NCBI GenBank assembly: GCA_029258835.1
Contig: JAPDJY010000053.1
Coordinates: 14,006 to 78,005, forward strand
Origin: Thermoproteota archaeon
Lineage (GTDB): Archaea; Asgardarchaeota; Jordiarchaeia; Jordiarchaeales; Freyrarchaeaceae
Length of the DNA: 64,000 nucleotides
Reading direction: 5' to 3'
Part shown: piece after piece, positions 11,417 to 26,078 of the stretch
Numbering within the stretch: the first letter of the stretch is position 1
How the letters are laid out: every line of letters starts with the position of its first letter
Program-made: the position numbers and the translations under genes
Notes under the pieces: model-generated
Seen by the model: only the letters and a program-made list of their open reading frames with translations
Database searches by the model: none
Told to the model about the DNA's origin: nothing

Positions 11417-12931
11417 TTATGGCATTGACAGCCTACCTGGGTGCATGATGAAGTTCGGGTCAATAACCTCTCTAAACCGCCTTAAGAGGTCATAGTATGC
11501 CTTAGCCCTAGCAAACGTTAGCGGGGCATGCACGTACGGGTCAGGCCTATAGTTCAGCCACCCTTTATCGAGGAATATCTCCGTAGTGACGCGGTTCACC
11601 TCCTGCACACGACGCACATCCTCAGGATCAGTATAATCGAAGCATACGATAGGCATACAAATTGCCTGGCGGCAGTGGTCAATGCTGGCTATCCACATAA
11701 CCGGAGGGAAACCATACTCCTCCAGCTTCTGATTGTAAATCTCCGCGAATTCCGCACAGTTCTTCCATGGGGTATACCAGGTAATGAACAGGAATCCGGC
11801 GTTCCATAGCGAGTATGGGATGGCGATCTTGTTTGGTTTGCGGAGCCTGCTTTGGATTTGCTTGGGGTGTAGCTTCCACTCCTTTATTTCGTGGCCTGTT
11901 TTCGCGTTGTATTCTTTGGCTAGTTCATGTATCTTGTTAACTGTGAAGTCGAGTTCTTCTTTGCTGTGGCACCAGATCTCGAAGTTCATCCACCATCGGG
12001 GGATGCCGAGTTTCTTGTAGAACTCGTAGTCTGTTGGGACTTTCTCCTTAGGCCATCGGGTCATGACAAGGGGCCAGTTTCCTCCCTGCACCATTACGAG
12101 GTGGTCTGCTATGCCTAGCTCGTACTTTGACACTTCTAGGGTGAAGTCTTGCATGTCGTATGGGTTGTCCATTCCATATGCAATTATTGTCTTGTGGTGT
12201 GGGTGGGGGACTATTTTTATTGCGAGCTTGGTGATGACGCCCATTGTGCCTTGGGCTCCTAGGAAGAGGCCGTCGAAGTTTGGTCCTAACCCCCACCTGT
12301 AGAATGGCTTTGCTCCGGGTAGAGACCAGCTTCCGGTTCTGACTATTTCGCCTGTTGGGAGTACGATTTCCATGCCTAGTACCATGTCTGCCTGTGGGCC
12401 ATACCTTGCTGTGACCATGCTGAATCCTCTTTCGAGGGCGTCGCCGACCACGGTTGCGGCTGGCGGTGCACCGTCGGGAACCGGGGGAGCCCAGTCTGGG
12501 TAGTATTCTTCAGGGCAACTGAGGGATATCCTCTATGTTGCCTTTCTGAAGTATGCCCAGACTTTGCCGCTTCTTACCCCCGGCTCCAGTACGGCGTATC
12601 TTGCGTCGGTGTTGACTTCTATTATGCGGTCCATTCGTGATAGGTCTAGTAGGATTCCTCCTGGCTGTACTAGGGGGGTTGCGTATCCGCCGCTTAGTCC
12701 TCCTGCGCATGGGGTTACGGGTATGTGGTTTTCATTTGCTAGGATCAGAATTTTTCTCACTTCTTCGACGTATCTGGGTCTCACGACTACTTCTGGTACT
12801 GTTGCTTCAAGCCCCATTATCCCTCTTGAGAGGTAACTGTACCGCATCGCGATGTCTGACGAGACGAACTCTTTCCCTACTATGCTTTCCAGCATCTTTA
12901 CGATGTCAGGTGTAACTTCATTATAACTCAC
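11417..12931 (-). CDS. FAD-binding oxidoreductase (GlcD/D-lactate dehydrogenase-like), interrupted by a 36-nt BHB intron; 492 aa spliced
   Basis: ORF-track halves 12533-12931 and 11417-12451 are in one frame, separated by a TAG inside the insert; PEVVVRP, GGILLDLSRM, GAQGTMGVITKL, DPNFIMHPG motifs. Confidence 0.88.
12508..12543 (-). other. BHB-type intron in mRNA (36 nt)
   Basis: central helix UCAG/CUGA, bulges AA^A and AG^A, inner stems GGCAAC/GUUGCC and GAGG/CCUC, distal exon helix AGUCUGGG/CCCAGACU; splicing gives ..YFRKYYPDW.. Confidence 0.8.
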
Positions 12932-13256: not shown

Positions 13257-14684
13257 TTAGTCGCTTATGCCTGCGAGGCGTTTTACTATCTGCTTTTTCT
13301 CTTCAACATCGTAGGTTGCCATTATTGCTATTTCCTCCATTACAGGGGATCCTCCTCCGTGGACGTCTGCGACCGCCATTACTCCCCCAAGGGCTGAGCA
13401 GAGCATATCCGAGAGCAGTCTGAAGCACCTGTGGATGTTTTCCGGCGGGACTTCGGCTCTTCTAGATATGTACTTTTCCAGCAGGGGGCCTGTTTCAGGG
13501 TTTAGGAAGTCTTCCTCGTATGGTAGGGTTGCTGGAAGGCCTCCTGATAGGTCTGTTAGGATTTCTATGGCTGCGTGTGCATTTAGACCAGCGTGCCTTC
13601 TGCCAACGTTAGCGTATACGACGTTTGGCACGCAGGTTCCCGACCCGTACGTTTGCGACTTTACCGCCGAGGCGATTCCCGCCGCGTAGACTAGTTCGCT
13701 TAAGCTGACTAATTGGGCAAGCTTCGACCTCACGTGAGGCTTGTTCTCCACACCGTTGTAGTCCGACACTAAGGCGGCTGCCCCCATTATTATGTCGAAC
13801 AGTGCAGGCTTACAGCCTGTGTAGCTGTGCCTGTGGAAAAGGGCGAAAAGGTGTGCTAGCAACCCTGCAAACTGCCATTCTCCGCACAGGAAGACACGTT
13901 CCCAGGGGACGAAGACGTCGTCGAATACCACAAACGAGTCGGCTGCTCCAACTTCAGCCAGGGGGGCCTTAAACTTTTTCCTCGGTCTAAACGACGTTGC
14001 ACGGGTGACTAGTTTTACGCCTTCAGTATCCGCGGGTATCGCGAATGAGACTGACCAGTCTCCATCATCCTTAGTCATCATCCTCGTGGGTAATACTATG
14101 AGCTCGTCGGCGTAGGCGGCCATGGTTATGTGGTTCTTCGCCCCCCGAACTATTATTCCGTCATCTGTCTTCTTTACGATCCGCACGTAAAGGTCCGGGT
14201 CTTTCTGCTGGTGGGGGCGTAGGCTTCGGTCACCCTTAACGTCCGTTTGGGCTCCTGCAGCCACAAGGTCGTTTTTCTGGAAGTATTCAAGGTACTTAAG
14301 GAACCTTTTATGGTACTCTGTTCCTAAGGCTTGGTCGACTTCATATGTTATTACCGAGAGGGCGTTTATTGCGTCACATCCCATGCACCTCTGTATGCAC
14401 CCACCGGTCAAGTGGCAAAGCTTCCTTATCATTTCCTGCTTTTTAAGGAGGTCCTCCGGGCTACGATTTATGTGTGTAAACCTGTTTATTTTCTCCCCCG
14501 TGAGATGTGAGGTTGCTACGAGCAGGTCTTTGAATTCGGGGTCGTCAACCAGCTCGAACGTTTTCGATATAACTCTTATCCCGCCTTGGAGGCGGGGGTC
14601 ATCACGCTTAACTTTTTCTCCTCCAATGTAAACGTTCGGCTTCATTTTGTACAAGCTTTCTTGATATTCTTCAGGGGTACGCAT
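13257..14684 (-). CDS. 4-hydroxybutyryl-CoA dehydratase / HpaB-family protein
   Basis: CIQRCMGCD, AQTDVKGDRS, HRHSYTGCK, HGGGSP motifs. Confidence 0.85.
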   Translation of the reverse strand: MRTPEEYQESLYKMKPNVYIGGEKVKRDDPRLQGGIRVISKTFELVDDPEFKDLLVATSHLTGEKINRFTHINRSPEDLLKKQEMIRKLCHLTGGCIQRCMGCDAINALSVITYEVDQALGTEYHKRFLKYLEYFQKNDLVAAGAQTDVKGDRSLRPHQQKDPDLYVRIVKKTDDGIIVRGAKNHITMAAYADELIVLPTRMMTKDDGDWSVSFAIPADTEGVKLVTRATSFRPRKKFKAPLAEVGAADSFVVFDDVFVPWERVFLCGEWQFAGLLAHLFALFHRHSYTGCKPALFDIIMGAAALVSDYNGVENKPHVRSKLAQLVSLSELVYAAGIASAVKSQTYGSGTCVPNVVYANVGRRHAGLNAHAAIEILTDLSGGLPATLPYEEDFLNPETGPLLEKYISRRAEVPPENIHRCFRLLSDMLCSALGGVMAVADVHGGGSPVMEEIAIMATYDVEEKKQIVKRLAGISD

Positions 14685-14906
14685 TTCGAAGCCTCCTCTA
14701 CCTCCCTGAGAATATGGCATATGACTATACTTAAAGGTTTTTCAGGCTTCAGCCAGAATGTAGCCTTTTGAGTTGAAGGGTGTAGAATAATGGTGTTTTA
14801 ATGGAGAAGCTAGTGGGCAAAAGAAGGAGGAGTTATGCTTTTTTCCTGGAGAGAGGAGGAGGCAATGTAGAATTGCAGATTTTTAGTCTATTTGGATGTA
14901 AGCGGA

Positions 14907-24930: not shown

Positions 24931-25432
24931 CTCCCACCTGTTTACTTAAAACATCTAGGAGGACCTTTTCAAGGATGGTTACGAGTGCTTCAAGAGACTC
25001 TTCAACTTCAGGGGATAACTTCTCACCGAGGGCGCTCTTAGGCTGAACACCTACAAATATTACGTAGGCGTTAACCGTCTCCTGTAGGTACCTTGCAACC
25101 ATAGAGAGAGGGGTGTGATGAGTTGAAAATGTTACTCCTCCTAAACTTGAGATGTCTGATGTTACCACCACGTCCCCGGGGCTACCGTTGAACTGGGCTG
25201 CATCCACGAAGACTACGTGGCTGGGTTCAAAACGCCTTAAAACACCTGTAAAGTTTTCAGGCATGGTTCCTGCTTCCACCACCAGAACGTTGGCAAGTTT
25301 TAAGCGTTTAAGCCTTCTGGCAACTTCAAGCCCCACCCGGTCGTCACCCTTGAGCTCGCTTCCCACGCCTACAATAGCCACCTTGACCGCGCCGTCCAAC
25401 AGCTTCTTGAGAGCCTTTATCAAGCCTAACAC
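24908..25432 (-). CDS. hydrogenase maturation protease (HycI-like)
   Basis: GVGSELKGDD, PEN, VDAA, STH. Confidence 0.9.
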   Translation of the reverse strand: MLGLIKALKKLLDGAVKVAIVGVGSELKGDDRVGLEVARRLKRLKLANVLVVEAGTMPENFTGVLRRFEPSHVVFVDAAQFNGSPGDVVVTSDISSLGGVTFSTHHTPLSMVARYLQETVNAYVIFVGVQPKSALGEKLSPEVEESLEALVTILEKVLLDVLSKQVGDVQVGEG

Positions 25433-25496
25433 CCATAACTCCTTAACAAAGGAAACTTTAAAACCGTTTTTAACAAAGCTGATGACGGTGGCAGAA

Positions 25497-26078
25497 ATGG
25501 AGGAGAAAACAGAGGGAGAAAGTAGGGTTCAAGAGGAACTTAGAGAAGGAGAGGAAGAGGAGAAGGTTACCGGACTCTTAGTTGACGGCGATGTTGTGAT
25601 CAACGAGAAAGACGCCGAGAAAATACATGGGAAAGGCTACGGAGAGTACGAGGAAGACGGGAAACTTCACCTAGCACCCGTAGAAGCACTCCTCCTAGCA
25701 GAAAGGGGGAGACTCGTGGTGCTGGATAGTGAAGGCAGGGAGCTCACATTTAAAGAATTAGCGAAGACCTTCACCCGGAAAGACCCTAAACTATGGACGC
25801 GGTACTTGGTTTACAGGGACCTGAGAAGCAGAGGGTATGTTGTTAAGCAAGGGTTCGGAGGGGGAATAGACTTCAGAGTTTACCCTAGAGGAAGTAAGGT
25901 CGGAGAGGAAGCTGCGAAAACGCTGATATACATAGTCACCGAGGGAAAACCGATAAACCTTAAGGAGCTAGACAGAGTAACCAAGCTCGCAGTAAGCATG
26001 AGGAAGAAGCTCACAATGGCGCTGATAAACAGGCAGGGTGACGTTGTATACTACAACGTGCTACAGATGACGTTTTAA
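25497..26078 (+). CDS. endA: tRNA-splicing endonuclease subunit (probably the structural subunit)
   Basis: LAPVEAL, YLVYRDLRSRGY, DFRVY, RKKL, GDVVYY; Ala where the catalytic His is expected; ATG 25497. Confidence 0.88.
   Translation: MEEKTEGESRVQEELREGEEEEKVTGLLVDGDVVINEKDAEKIHGKGYGEYEEDGKLHLAPVEALLLAERGRLVVLDSEGRELTFKELAKTFTRKDPKLWTRYLVYRDLRSRGYVVKQGFGGGIDFRVYPRGSKVGEEAAKTLIYIVTEGKPINLKELDRVTKLAVSMRKKLTMALINRQGDVVYYNVLQMTF

What the first reader, a model, noticed from the sequence alone, without database searches (positions are those of the whole stretch)
12508..12543. 36-nt BHB intron carrying an in-frame UAG in a GlcD-like FAD oxidoreductase
On the minus strand UCAG-AA^A-GGCAAC-AUA-GAGG-AUAUC-CCUC-A-GUUGCC-CUGA-AG^A folds as a BHB. 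Only 1 bp closes it on the exon side, but an 8-bp exon-exon helix AGUCUGGG/CCCAGACU lies 5 nt away. Removal deletes the stop and gives VWAYFRKYYPDWAPP in a 492-aa protein. Pairing between the two exons suggests selection on coding sequence to present the motif.
Basis: partly seen in the sequence, partly recalled or inferred. Interest (0 to 1): 0.86.

Follow-up and report, generated by a model that had tools for sequence, protein, structure and literature searches.

The report
tRNA-type mini-intron in an Asgard enzyme gene
A 36-base hairpin that breaks an FAD-oxidoreductase gene of an Asgard (Jordarchaeia/Freyarchaeia) archaeon is almost certainly a bulge-helix-bulge intron cut out of the mRNA by the tRNA-splicing enzymes, a kind of mRNA splicing so far confirmed in archaea only for the cbf5 gene of Crenarchaeota.

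Summary
On the minus strand, 36 nt (12543..12508) carrying an in-frame TAG interrupt a PF01565 FAD-oxidoreductase gene (12931..11417). All 15 aligned homologues lack exactly these 12 codons.

The insert folds as UCAG-AA^A-h'-CUGA-AG^A. Cutting after the second base of each bulge restores a 492-aa protein collinear with its homologues.

Decisive evidence comes from relatives. Orthologues at 93.5-94.3% amino-acid identity, in independent assemblies, carry an insert at the same site. The five insert forms are 36, 29, 29, 24 and 22 nt long. Three shift the frame, and the in-frame stops are TAG, TGA or TAA. All keep the same central helix, bulges and inner stem.

The spliced coding sequences have dN/dS of 0.013-0.026 at dS 0.3-1.6. 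The 20 codons after the insert show only synonymous changes. This excludes pyrrolysine read-through (no pylS either), a pseudogene and a split gene.

The genome encodes two EndA paralogues and RtcB. Its only EF-1alpha and ahcY genes carry frame-shifting BHB inserts of the same type.

No RNA read covers the junction, so splicing itself is inferred. First readers of this scan noted similar introns on other pieces of this same genome. My own blind census found no significant excess.

The parts
12544..12931 (-). Exon 1 of the FAD-binding oxidoreductase gene (GTG start at 12931; encodes residues 1-129 plus two bases of the Lys130 codon)
   Evidence: ORF and translation. PF01565 FAD_binding_4 matches residues 46-131, profile 1-84 of 139, and is broken at the insert.
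12508..12543 (-). 36-nt bulge-helix-bulge intron with in-frame TAG (12535..12533)
   Evidence: Absent from all 15 aligned homologues. Five length variants (36/29/29/24/22 nt) sit at the same site in relatives. Unique in the genome.
11417..12507 (-). Exon 2 (residues 130-492 of the spliced protein, stop codon included)
   Evidence: The first 20 codons show 10 variable codons across the five insert forms, all synonymous.
12546..12549 (-). Central helix H, exon strand UCAG
   Evidence: Pairs with CUGA at 12513..12510. Invariant in all five insert forms.
12543..12545 (-). 5' bulge AAA; predicted cut between 12544 and 12543
   Evidence: Sequence. The cut after the second bulge base restores the frame in all five insert forms.
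12537..12542 (-). Inner helix h', 5' strand GGCAAC
   Evidence: Pairs with 12519..12514. The sixth pair is C-G / U.G / U-A across the insert forms.
12514..12519 (-). Inner helix h', 3' strand GUUGCC
12510..12513 (-). Central helix H, intron strand CUGA
12507..12509 (-). 3' bulge AGA; predicted cut between 12508 and 12507
   Evidence: The second bulge base is G, U, C or A among the insert forms, which fits an unpaired, non-coding position.
12556..12563 (-). Exon-exon helix, 5' strand AGUCUGGG
   Evidence: 8/8 pairs in the five intron-bearing forms and 6-7/8 in intronless homologues.
12493..12500 (-). Exon-exon helix, 3' strand CCCAGACU
25152..26078 (+). Second EndA paralogue. It is a candidate structural (beta-like) subunit of the splicing endonuclease, and its real start is probably internal. 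The putative catalytic paralogue lies on another contig (G000:C1:12233-12481).
   Evidence: PF02778 + PF01974. RtcB is at G000:C1:78966-80273.

Best explanation
The 36 nt are an archaeal bulge-helix-bulge intron inside an mRNA.

In the transcript, the exon sequence UCAG pairs with the intron sequence CUGA to form the 4-bp central helix. A 6-bp intron stem (h') and exon-exon pairing flank it, leaving two 3-nt bulges (AAA and AGA) on opposite strands.

The splicing endonuclease EndA is probably an (alpha-beta)2 heterotetramer built from the two paralogues in this genome. It cuts after the second base of each bulge, and RtcB joins the exons. The mature mRNA reads ...UUC AGA AA|A UAC UAC... and encodes a 492-aa FAD-binding oxidoreductase.

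Shown: the structure, its exact fit to the homology-defined boundaries, conservation of the site and the BHB core across five insert forms of different length, purifying selection on both exons, and presence of the enzymes.

Inferred: the cleavage and ligation themselves, the endonuclease architecture, and circular release of the intron.
For: 1. All 15 aligned homologues lack exactly the 12 codons.

2. Orthologues from other assemblies carry inserts at the identical site: L001 29 nt, L012 29 nt (different sequence), L006 24 nt, L023 22 nt. The spliced coding sequences of L001, L006 and L012 are 93.5-94.3% amino-acid identical to the window's; L023 was not included in that comparison. Three inserts are not multiples of 3. 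The in-frame stops are TAG, TGA, TGA, TGA and TAA.

3. All five forms keep UCAG-AAA-GGCAA...UUGCC-CUGA-ANA. All 100 pair cells are paired, against 25-53% when the partner is slid. One inner-stem pair changes C-G to U-A via U.G. The second base of the 3' bulge takes all four values.

4. Applying the EndA rule yields an intact ~492-aa ORF wherever the gene is complete: the window, L001 and L006. L012 is 5'-truncated and partly masked, and its ORF is open over the 387 codons present.

5. dN/dS is 0.013-0.026 at dS 0.32-1.6 among the intron-bearing genes compared. Ten of the 20 codons just after the insert vary, all synonymously.

6. The BHB register lies only 1.8-4.0 kcal/mol above the MFE.

7. 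The genome has two EndA paralogues, each with N- and C-terminal domains, and RtcB.

8. The same solution is needed for essential genes of this genome:
- The only EF-1alpha above cut-off has a 43-nt frame-shifting insert inside GHVDHG|KST, with CGGC-AA^U-(10-bp stem)-GCCG-AA^G.
- The only ahcY is split at profile positions 179|180 by a 23-nt BHB.
- An aconitase-family gene in this window has a 29-nt insert.

9. The lineage is known for introns in 92-95% of its tRNA genes (PMC11291895). Hetero-oligomeric EndA is known to accept relaxed motifs in mRNA (PMC2738675, PMC5829648).
Against: - There is no RNA evidence for the junction. The single metatranscriptome that holds the gene has contigs on both sides but none across 12357-12609.
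- The exon-side closing helix is weak in the window: 1 bp, then an internal loop. The MFE prefers a 6-bp helix without a 3' bulge, so this is a relaxed rather than a strict hBHBh' motif.
- With five related sequences the covariation is not statistically significant (207 of 500 shuffles reach it).
- My blind genome-wide motif-plus-coding-frame census showed no significant excess of frame-restoring BHBs, for example 39 against 29 and 32. The system-level support therefore rests on individually verified genes.
Confidence: 0.88

Rival explanations
1. Stop-codon recoding: UAG is read as pyrrolysine (or read through), and the protein keeps a 12-residue insertion.
For: In the window the insert is 36 nt, in frame, with a single TAG. 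Pyrrolysine use has been claimed for some Asgard lineages (my recollection, not checked here).
Against: The genome has no PylS (38 bits against a cut-off of 178) and no tRNA-Pyl. Relatives have 29-, 29- and 22-nt frame-shifting inserts and TGA/TAA stops at the same site. No homologue has the 12 residues.
Confidence: 0.01
2. Pseudogene: a small palindromic insertion inactivated the gene.
For: Gene callers split the gene into 132-aa and 344-aa ORFs.
Against: dN/dS is 0.013-0.026 with dS up to 1.6 among the intron-bearing copies compared. There are no further lesions in the copies that are complete. The insert is not a repeated element in the genome. Essential single-copy genes (EF-1alpha, ahcY) carry inserts of the same kind.
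Confidence: 0.03
3. Programmed translational bypassing: the ribosome hops over the hairpin, as in phage T4 gene 60.
For: A stop codon lies shortly after the break and a stable hairpin is present. No RNA data exclude it.
Against: No matched take-off and landing codons exist. The codon before UAC UAC is GAA, UAA, CAA or AAA in the different forms, while the take-off side is AGA-AAG. The gap length varies from 22 to 36 nt. The boundaries fit the BHB cleavage rule exactly. The genome has the BHB machinery and many BHB substrates.
Confidence: 0.03
4. Split gene: the two ORFs are translated separately and the halves assemble.
For: In the window a GTG at 12451 starts a 344-aa ORF. In L012 an in-frame GTG lies inside the insert.
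Against: The 17 residues between the insert and that GTG (YYPDWAPPVPDGAPPAA) include family-invariant positions. The first 20 codons after the insert vary only synonymously, so this stretch is translated. Yet the window, L001 and L006 have no in-frame start between the last upstream stop and this segment. The break lies inside the FAD_binding_4 domain.
Confidence: 0.03

Closest known systems
BHB intron in cbf5 (pseudouridine synthase) pre-mRNA of Crenarchaeota (Watanabe et al. 2002; Yoshinari et al. 2006; Yokobori et al. 2009, PMC2738675)
   Same: It is a short intron inside a protein-coding gene, bounded by a (often relaxed) bulge-helix-bulge motif. It occurs in organisms with a hetero-oligomeric EndA and many non-canonical tRNA introns. 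It is present or absent among close relatives (gain and loss), and gene callers mistake it for a frameshift.
   Different: The host is an Asgard (Jordarchaeia/Freyarchaeia) archaeon and the gene is a metabolic FAD-oxidoreductase rather than cbf5. Splicing has not been shown experimentally here. The intron length varies between 22 and 36 nt at one site within a narrow clade.
Archaeal tRNA introns at non-canonical positions, removed by EndA and RtcB (Marck & Grosjean 2003); Freyarchaeia and Atabeyarchaeia have introns in 92-95% of tRNA genes (PMC11291895; bioRxiv 10.64898/2026.10.13.758758)
   Same: The motif has the same geometry (4-bp helix, two 3-nt bulges, cut after the second bulge base), the same size range, and the same inferred enzymes. 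The lineage is the same one that carries the heavy tRNA intron load.
   Different: The substrate is an mRNA without a tRNA body, so recognition must rest on the BHB alone. Here the exon side is closed only by weak or interrupted pairing.
BHB intron in the 5' UTR of HVO_1309 mRNA of Haloferax volcanii (Schwarz et al. 2020, PMC7714728)
   Same: EndA processes an mRNA at a BHB.
   Different: That intron lies in the untranslated leader. This one lies inside the coding sequence and must be removed to restore the reading frame.
RTCB-dependent 'SOS splicing' of DNA transposons from animal mRNAs (PMC12779559)
   Same: It works alike in outline: a base-paired hairpin insert is recognised by shape, excised from an mRNA independently of a spliceosome, and the ends are joined by RtcB.
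   Different: The domain of life differs, the trigger is paired inverted terminal repeats, and the endonuclease differs. There is no evidence that the element here is a transposon, since it is a single copy in the genome.

Membership tests
Archaeal bulge-helix-bulge (EndA-type) intron | 4-bp central helix flanked by two 3-nt bulges on opposite strands | tested here: met
   UCAG/CUGA with bulges AAA and AGA. The arrangement is conserved in all five insert forms, with 100% of pair cells paired. The canonical register lies 1.8-4.0 kcal/mol above the MFE.
Archaeal bulge-helix-bulge (EndA-type) intron | Flanking helices h (exon side) and h' (intron side) of the strict hBHBh' form | tested here: inconclusive
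   h' is strong, at 6-9 bp. In the window h is 1 bp, then an internal loop with 2 possible pairs, then 8 bp. In the relatives it is 1 bp, a bulged C, GUA/UAC and then 8 bp. The motif is therefore relaxed, of the kind reported for cbf5 introns (PMC2738675).
Archaeal bulge-helix-bulge (EndA-type) intron | Cutting after the second base of each bulge yields the functional product | tested here: met
   The rule removes 36, 29, 29, 24 and 22 nt respectively. It gives an intact ORF collinear with intronless homologues in the complete genes (window, L001, L006), and an open frame over the available part of L012.
Archaeal bulge-helix-bulge (EndA-type) intron | Splicing endonuclease and RtcB ligase encoded by the organism | tested here: met
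   Two EndA paralogues are over the Pfam cut-off, each with PF02778 + PF01974. RtcB scores 607 bits.
Archaeal bulge-helix-bulge (EndA-type) intron | Excision and exon ligation observed in RNA | tested here: inconclusive
   The one RNA run (X16) holds three contigs of the gene at 99% identity or better, but none across the intron. No joints were reported.
Pyrrolysine-recoded gene | pylS/pylT present, and UAG conserved or replaced by a sense codon in homologues | tested here: not met
   No PylS and no tRNA-Pyl. In relatives the TAG is replaced by TGA, TAA or frameshifts.
Programmed translational bypass (T4 gene 60 type) | Matched take-off and landing codons flanking the gap | tested here: not met
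   The codon preceding exon 2 varies (GAA, UAA, CAA, AAA) and never matches the take-off codon in all forms.
Pseudogene | Relaxed selection (dN/dS near 1) and accumulation of further lesions | tested here: not met
   dN/dS is 0.013-0.026 at dS 0.3-1.6, with no other stops or frameshifts in the complete copies.

The most novel reading that the evidence does not exclude
This intron is one of many. Jordarchaeia/Freyarchaeia would then routinely splice mRNAs of ten or more ordinary and essential genes (EF-1alpha, ahcY, an aconitase-family gene, this oxidoreductase and others noted by the scan) with the tRNA-splicing endonuclease and RtcB. Protein-coding 'genes in pieces' would be a regular feature of an archaeal lineage close to eukaryotes, and standard gene callers would systematically misannotate these genomes.
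Probability: 0.7. Interest if true: 0.88.

Novelty: new member of a known kind. Interest (0 to 1): 0.72.

Why it matters
As of 2020 the only BHB intron reported inside an archaeal coding sequence was in crenarchaeal cbf5 (PMC7714728, PMC2738675). My searches of the held library found no report of BHB introns in Asgard protein-coding genes.

This case offers an unusually clean comparative proof in a metabolic gene. One site carries five insert lengths, three of them frame-shifting, and all three stop codons occur among them. The BHB core is invariant and both exons are under strong purifying selection.

It extends mRNA splicing by the tRNA machinery to Asgard archaea. It links that splicing to the extreme tRNA-intron load already published for this lineage. 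It also shows that apparent pseudogenes and split ORFs in these MAGs can be intact genes, which affects metabolic reconstructions and completeness estimates.

The case provides a defined 101-nt substrate and two endonuclease subunits for direct biochemical testing.

Tried and rejected
1. RNA junction evidence. Two searches for runs gave one metatranscriptome (X16). Its contigs cover 11509-11696, 11952-12356 and 12610-12816 but not the intron, and no joints were found. This says nothing either way.

2. Blind genome-wide census. I scanned both strands for strict BHBs (4-bp helix with at most 1 G.U, two 3-nt bulges, inner stem of at least 4 bp, length 12-90). I then asked whether the EndA rule restores an ORF more often than cuts shifted by 1 or 2 nt.
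- ORF openness alone gave 1165 against 1052-1183.
- Codon-usage frame assignment of 50-codon flanks gave 492 against 506 and 498. Requiring length of 50 nt or less and inner-stem energy of -8 kcal/mol or lower gave 39 against 29 and 32.
- A-first bulges with 30-codon flanks gave 15 against 11 and 9.
None of these is significant. Operon junctions and open alternative frames dominate the background, and genes with short first exons (EF-1alpha, the aconitase-family gene) are excluded by design. The census did recover this intron, the ahcY intron and several compact hairpins.

3. Mobile-element origin. blastn-short of the five insert forms against the genome found only chance 11-14-mers and 15-18-nt one-mismatch matches (E 0.2 or higher).

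4. ARAGORN with introns as a way to compare tRNA BHBs. It finds only about 23 tRNAs and its intron calls are unreliable, so I abandoned this.

5. My first genome search used an irrelevant family (PF01717). It served only to identify the genome.

6. Covariation statistics. There are too few, closely related sequences.

Full report
**What is there.**
On the minus strand a GTG-initiated gene runs from 12931 to 11417. It encodes a protein of the FAD_binding_4 family (PF01565). The Pfam match is broken at profile position 84 of 139. The reading frame meets TAG at 12535..12533 and then continues in the same frame. The best homologues are FAD-binding oxidoreductases of Asgard archaea; the best named hit is Njordarchaeum at 69%. 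In a 16-sequence alignment, every homologue has a gap of exactly 12 residues: VWAYFRK[ATxRISLSCPEE]YYPDW against VWAYFRKK-YPEW.

**Structure.**
The transcript around the insert folds far better than shuffled sequence: -43.7 against -28.5 +/- 3.4 kcal/mol, z = -4.4.
- central helix UCAG/CUGA
- 5' bulge AAA
- inner stem GGCAAC/GUUGCC, capped by a GAGG-AUAUC-CCUC hairpin
- 3' bulge AGA
- one closing U-A pair
- the 8-bp exon-exon helix AGUCUGGG/CCCAGACU

The MFE instead extends the central helix to CUUCAG/CUGAAG. The canonical BHB register costs 4.0 kcal/mol more in the window and 1.8 kcal/mol more in relatives. BHB-like arrangements of this quality (perfect 4-bp helix, inner stem of at least 6 bp) occur at about 1.2e-5 per position and length in this genome. 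The agreement with boundaries defined independently by homology is therefore not chance.

**Comparative evidence (the decisive part).**
Searching by protein and by a DNA pattern recovered orthologues from other assemblies:
- a Logan contig (L001)
- Jordarchaeales JZ-1 (L006)
- Jordarchaeia QC4 (L012)
- JGI metagenome contigs L021-L025

Five distinct insert forms exist at exactly the same codon:

| Source | Length | In-frame stop |
|---|---|---|
| window (= L022, L025) | 36 nt | TAG |
| L001 | 29 nt | TGA |
| L012 | 29 nt, different sequence | TGA |
| L006 (= L021, L024) | 24 nt | TGA |
| L023 | 22 nt | TAA |

Three of the lengths are not multiples of three. All five keep UCAG-AAA-GGCAA...UUGCC-CUGA-A-N-A. 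The loop and stem length change freely. The second base of the 3' bulge is G, U, C or A. The sixth inner-stem pair is C-G, U.G or U-A. On the alignment all 100 pair cells are paired, against 25-53% when partners are slid. With five related sequences, however, the covariation itself is not significant.

Applying the EndA rule (cut after the second base of each bulge) restores an intact ORF of about 492 aa in the complete genes: the window, L001 and L006. L012 is 5'-truncated and partly masked, and its frame is open over the 387 codons available.

The closest intronless relatives are other Jordarchaeia at about 75% identity, and more distant Asgard. They read TTCAGAAAA... straight through.

**Why it must be removed from the RNA.**
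Among the intron-bearing genes compared, dN/dS is 0.013-0.026 while dS is 0.32-1.6. The gene has thus stayed under strong protein-level constraint while carrying the insert. In the 20 codons just downstream of the insert, ten codons vary among the five forms and every change is synonymous. This stretch contains family-invariant residues (PDGAPP). It lies upstream of the first possible restart codon, and in the window, L001 and L006 no in-frame start exists between the last stop and it. Together these observations exclude four readings:
- A pseudogene is excluded by the purifying selection.
- A split gene translated as two proteins is excluded by the constrained stretch upstream of any restart codon.
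- Pyrrolysine or any single-stop recoding is excluded by the frameshifts and the use of three different stops. The genome also lacks PylS and tRNA-Pyl.
- Translational bypassing lacks any matched take-off and landing codons, because the codon preceding exon 2 is GAA, UAA, CAA or AAA.

The insert is present in DNA contigs of independent runs. It is a single copy in the genome, so it is neither an assembly artefact nor a repeated mobile element.

**Machinery and context.**
The genome (2.72 Mb, 94.7% complete) encodes two EndA paralogues, each with N- and C-terminal endonuclease domains. One is a 190-aa protein on contig C1. The other lies in this very window at 25152-26078. RtcB is also present. 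Two paralogues suggest the (alpha-beta)2 architecture. That architecture is the one known to accept relaxed BHB motifs and has been linked to cbf5 pre-mRNA splicing (PMC5829648, PMC2738675). It was also recently inferred for most Asgard genomes (bioRxiv 10.64898/2026.10.13.758758).

The relatives are labelled Jordarchaeia, a synonym of Freyarchaeia. That lineage is reported to have introns in 92-95% of its tRNA genes (PMC11291895). ARAGORN's poor tRNA yield here fits this report.

Prompted by earlier notes of this scan, I checked other genes myself:
- The only EF-1alpha above cut-off has a 43-nt frame-shifting insert inside the P-loop GHVDHG|KST, with CGGC-AA^U-(10-bp stem)-GCCG-AA^G. Removing it restores [23 protein letters not shown].
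- The only ahcY is split exactly at profile positions 179|180 by a 23-nt BHB, TGGG-AA^A-...-CCCA-AA^T.
- An aconitase-family gene in this window has a 29-nt frame-shifting insert at 33340-33368 with the same layout.

An organism cannot live without EF-1alpha, so it must remove such inserts. This makes splicing of the oxidoreductase mRNA the economical reading.

**The exon-exon helix.**
The helix is 8/8 paired in all intron-bearing forms, and all variation within it is by transitions that keep pairing. Intronless homologues already have 6-7 of 8 pairs. The helix comes from the conserved V/I-W...P-D/E-W codons, and the exon half of the BHB (TCAGAA) is present in the nearest intronless relatives. 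The site therefore looks pre-adapted, and selection on the coding sequence need not be invoked. In the four relatives an additional GUA/UAC helix sits next to the 3' bulge, so the exon-side closure is better there than in the window.

**What is missing.**
No RNA read spans the junction. The single metatranscriptome holding the gene has contigs on both sides only. My blind census combined strict BHB motifs with inferred coding frames. It did not show a significant excess of frame-restoring motifs over shifted-cut controls. I therefore cannot state from my own data how many genes are affected. The census was underpowered and excludes short first exons by design.

**Comparison and novelty.**
Mechanistically this is the same kind of element as the crenarchaeal cbf5 intron (Watanabe 2002; Yokobori 2009, PMC2738675). 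A 2020 study still called that the only BHB intron reported inside an archaeal coding sequence (PMC7714728). The differences are the host lineage (Asgard), the gene (a metabolic oxidoreductase) and the length polymorphism at one site. I found no paper in the held library describing BHB introns in Asgard protein-coding genes.

I file it as a new member of a known kind, with confidence 0.88 that it is spliced by the EndA/RtcB pathway. The broader reading is that mRNA splicing of this type is routine in this lineage. It is probable (about 0.7) and would be of high interest. First readers of this scan have noted similar introns on other pieces of the same genome. I verified three such genes here: the EF-1alpha and ahcY genes on other contigs, and the aconitase-family gene in this window (partly).

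Noticed in passing
window 33340-33368 (+): A 29-nt frame-shifting insert lies in an aconitase-family gene. Upstream is a 43-codon open frame ending ...VAMVHEMLG. Downstream is a 399-codon frame matching PF00330 from profile position 91. The layout is TTGG-AA^A-CCCGG...CTGGG-CTAA-AC^T. It is probably a second BHB mRNA intron in this window.
   Followed up: partly
window 25152-26078 (+): A second EndA paralogue (PF02778 + PF01974) lies here. The long N-terminal part of the ORF overlaps the opposite-strand gene and is low-complexity, so the true start is probably internal (near MTVAEMEEK). By eye I found no His at the position of the catalytic His seen in the contig-C1 paralogue, which suggests a structural beta subunit.
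   Followed up: partly
G000:C27:28874-28832 (-), outside the window: The only EF-1alpha gene has a 43-nt frame-shifting BHB insert inside the P-loop (GHVDHG|KST), with a 10-bp inner stem.
   Followed up: yes
G000:C4:24376-24354 (-), outside the window: The only ahcY (S-adenosylhomocysteine hydrolase) gene is split at TIGR00936 positions 179|180 by a 23-nt BHB insert.
   Followed up: yes
window 37134-37149 (-): An earlier scan note lists a 16-nt candidate micro-intron here. I saw an open frame through it and could not judge it without homologues.
   Followed up: no
whole genome G000: ARAGORN finds only about 23 tRNA genes in a 94.7%-complete genome, nearly all with predicted introns, some implausibly long. 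This fits the published heavy, non-canonical tRNA intron load of Freyarchaeia (PMC11291895).
   Followed up: partly
window 13257-14720 (-) and L001 105-1532: A 4-hydroxybutyryl-CoA dehydratase / HpaB-family gene sits directly upstream of the oxidoreductase, both in the window and in the close relative L001 (conserved synteny). This hints at a shared pathway.
   Followed up: no
G000:C28 (+) index 12826, C8 (+) index 63568, C27 (+) index 11922: My census found compact frame-restoring BHB hairpins with A-rich bulges and inner stems of 8-10 bp (lengths 32, 30 and 27 nt). The first matches the acyltransferase intron noted earlier by the scan.
   Followed up: no
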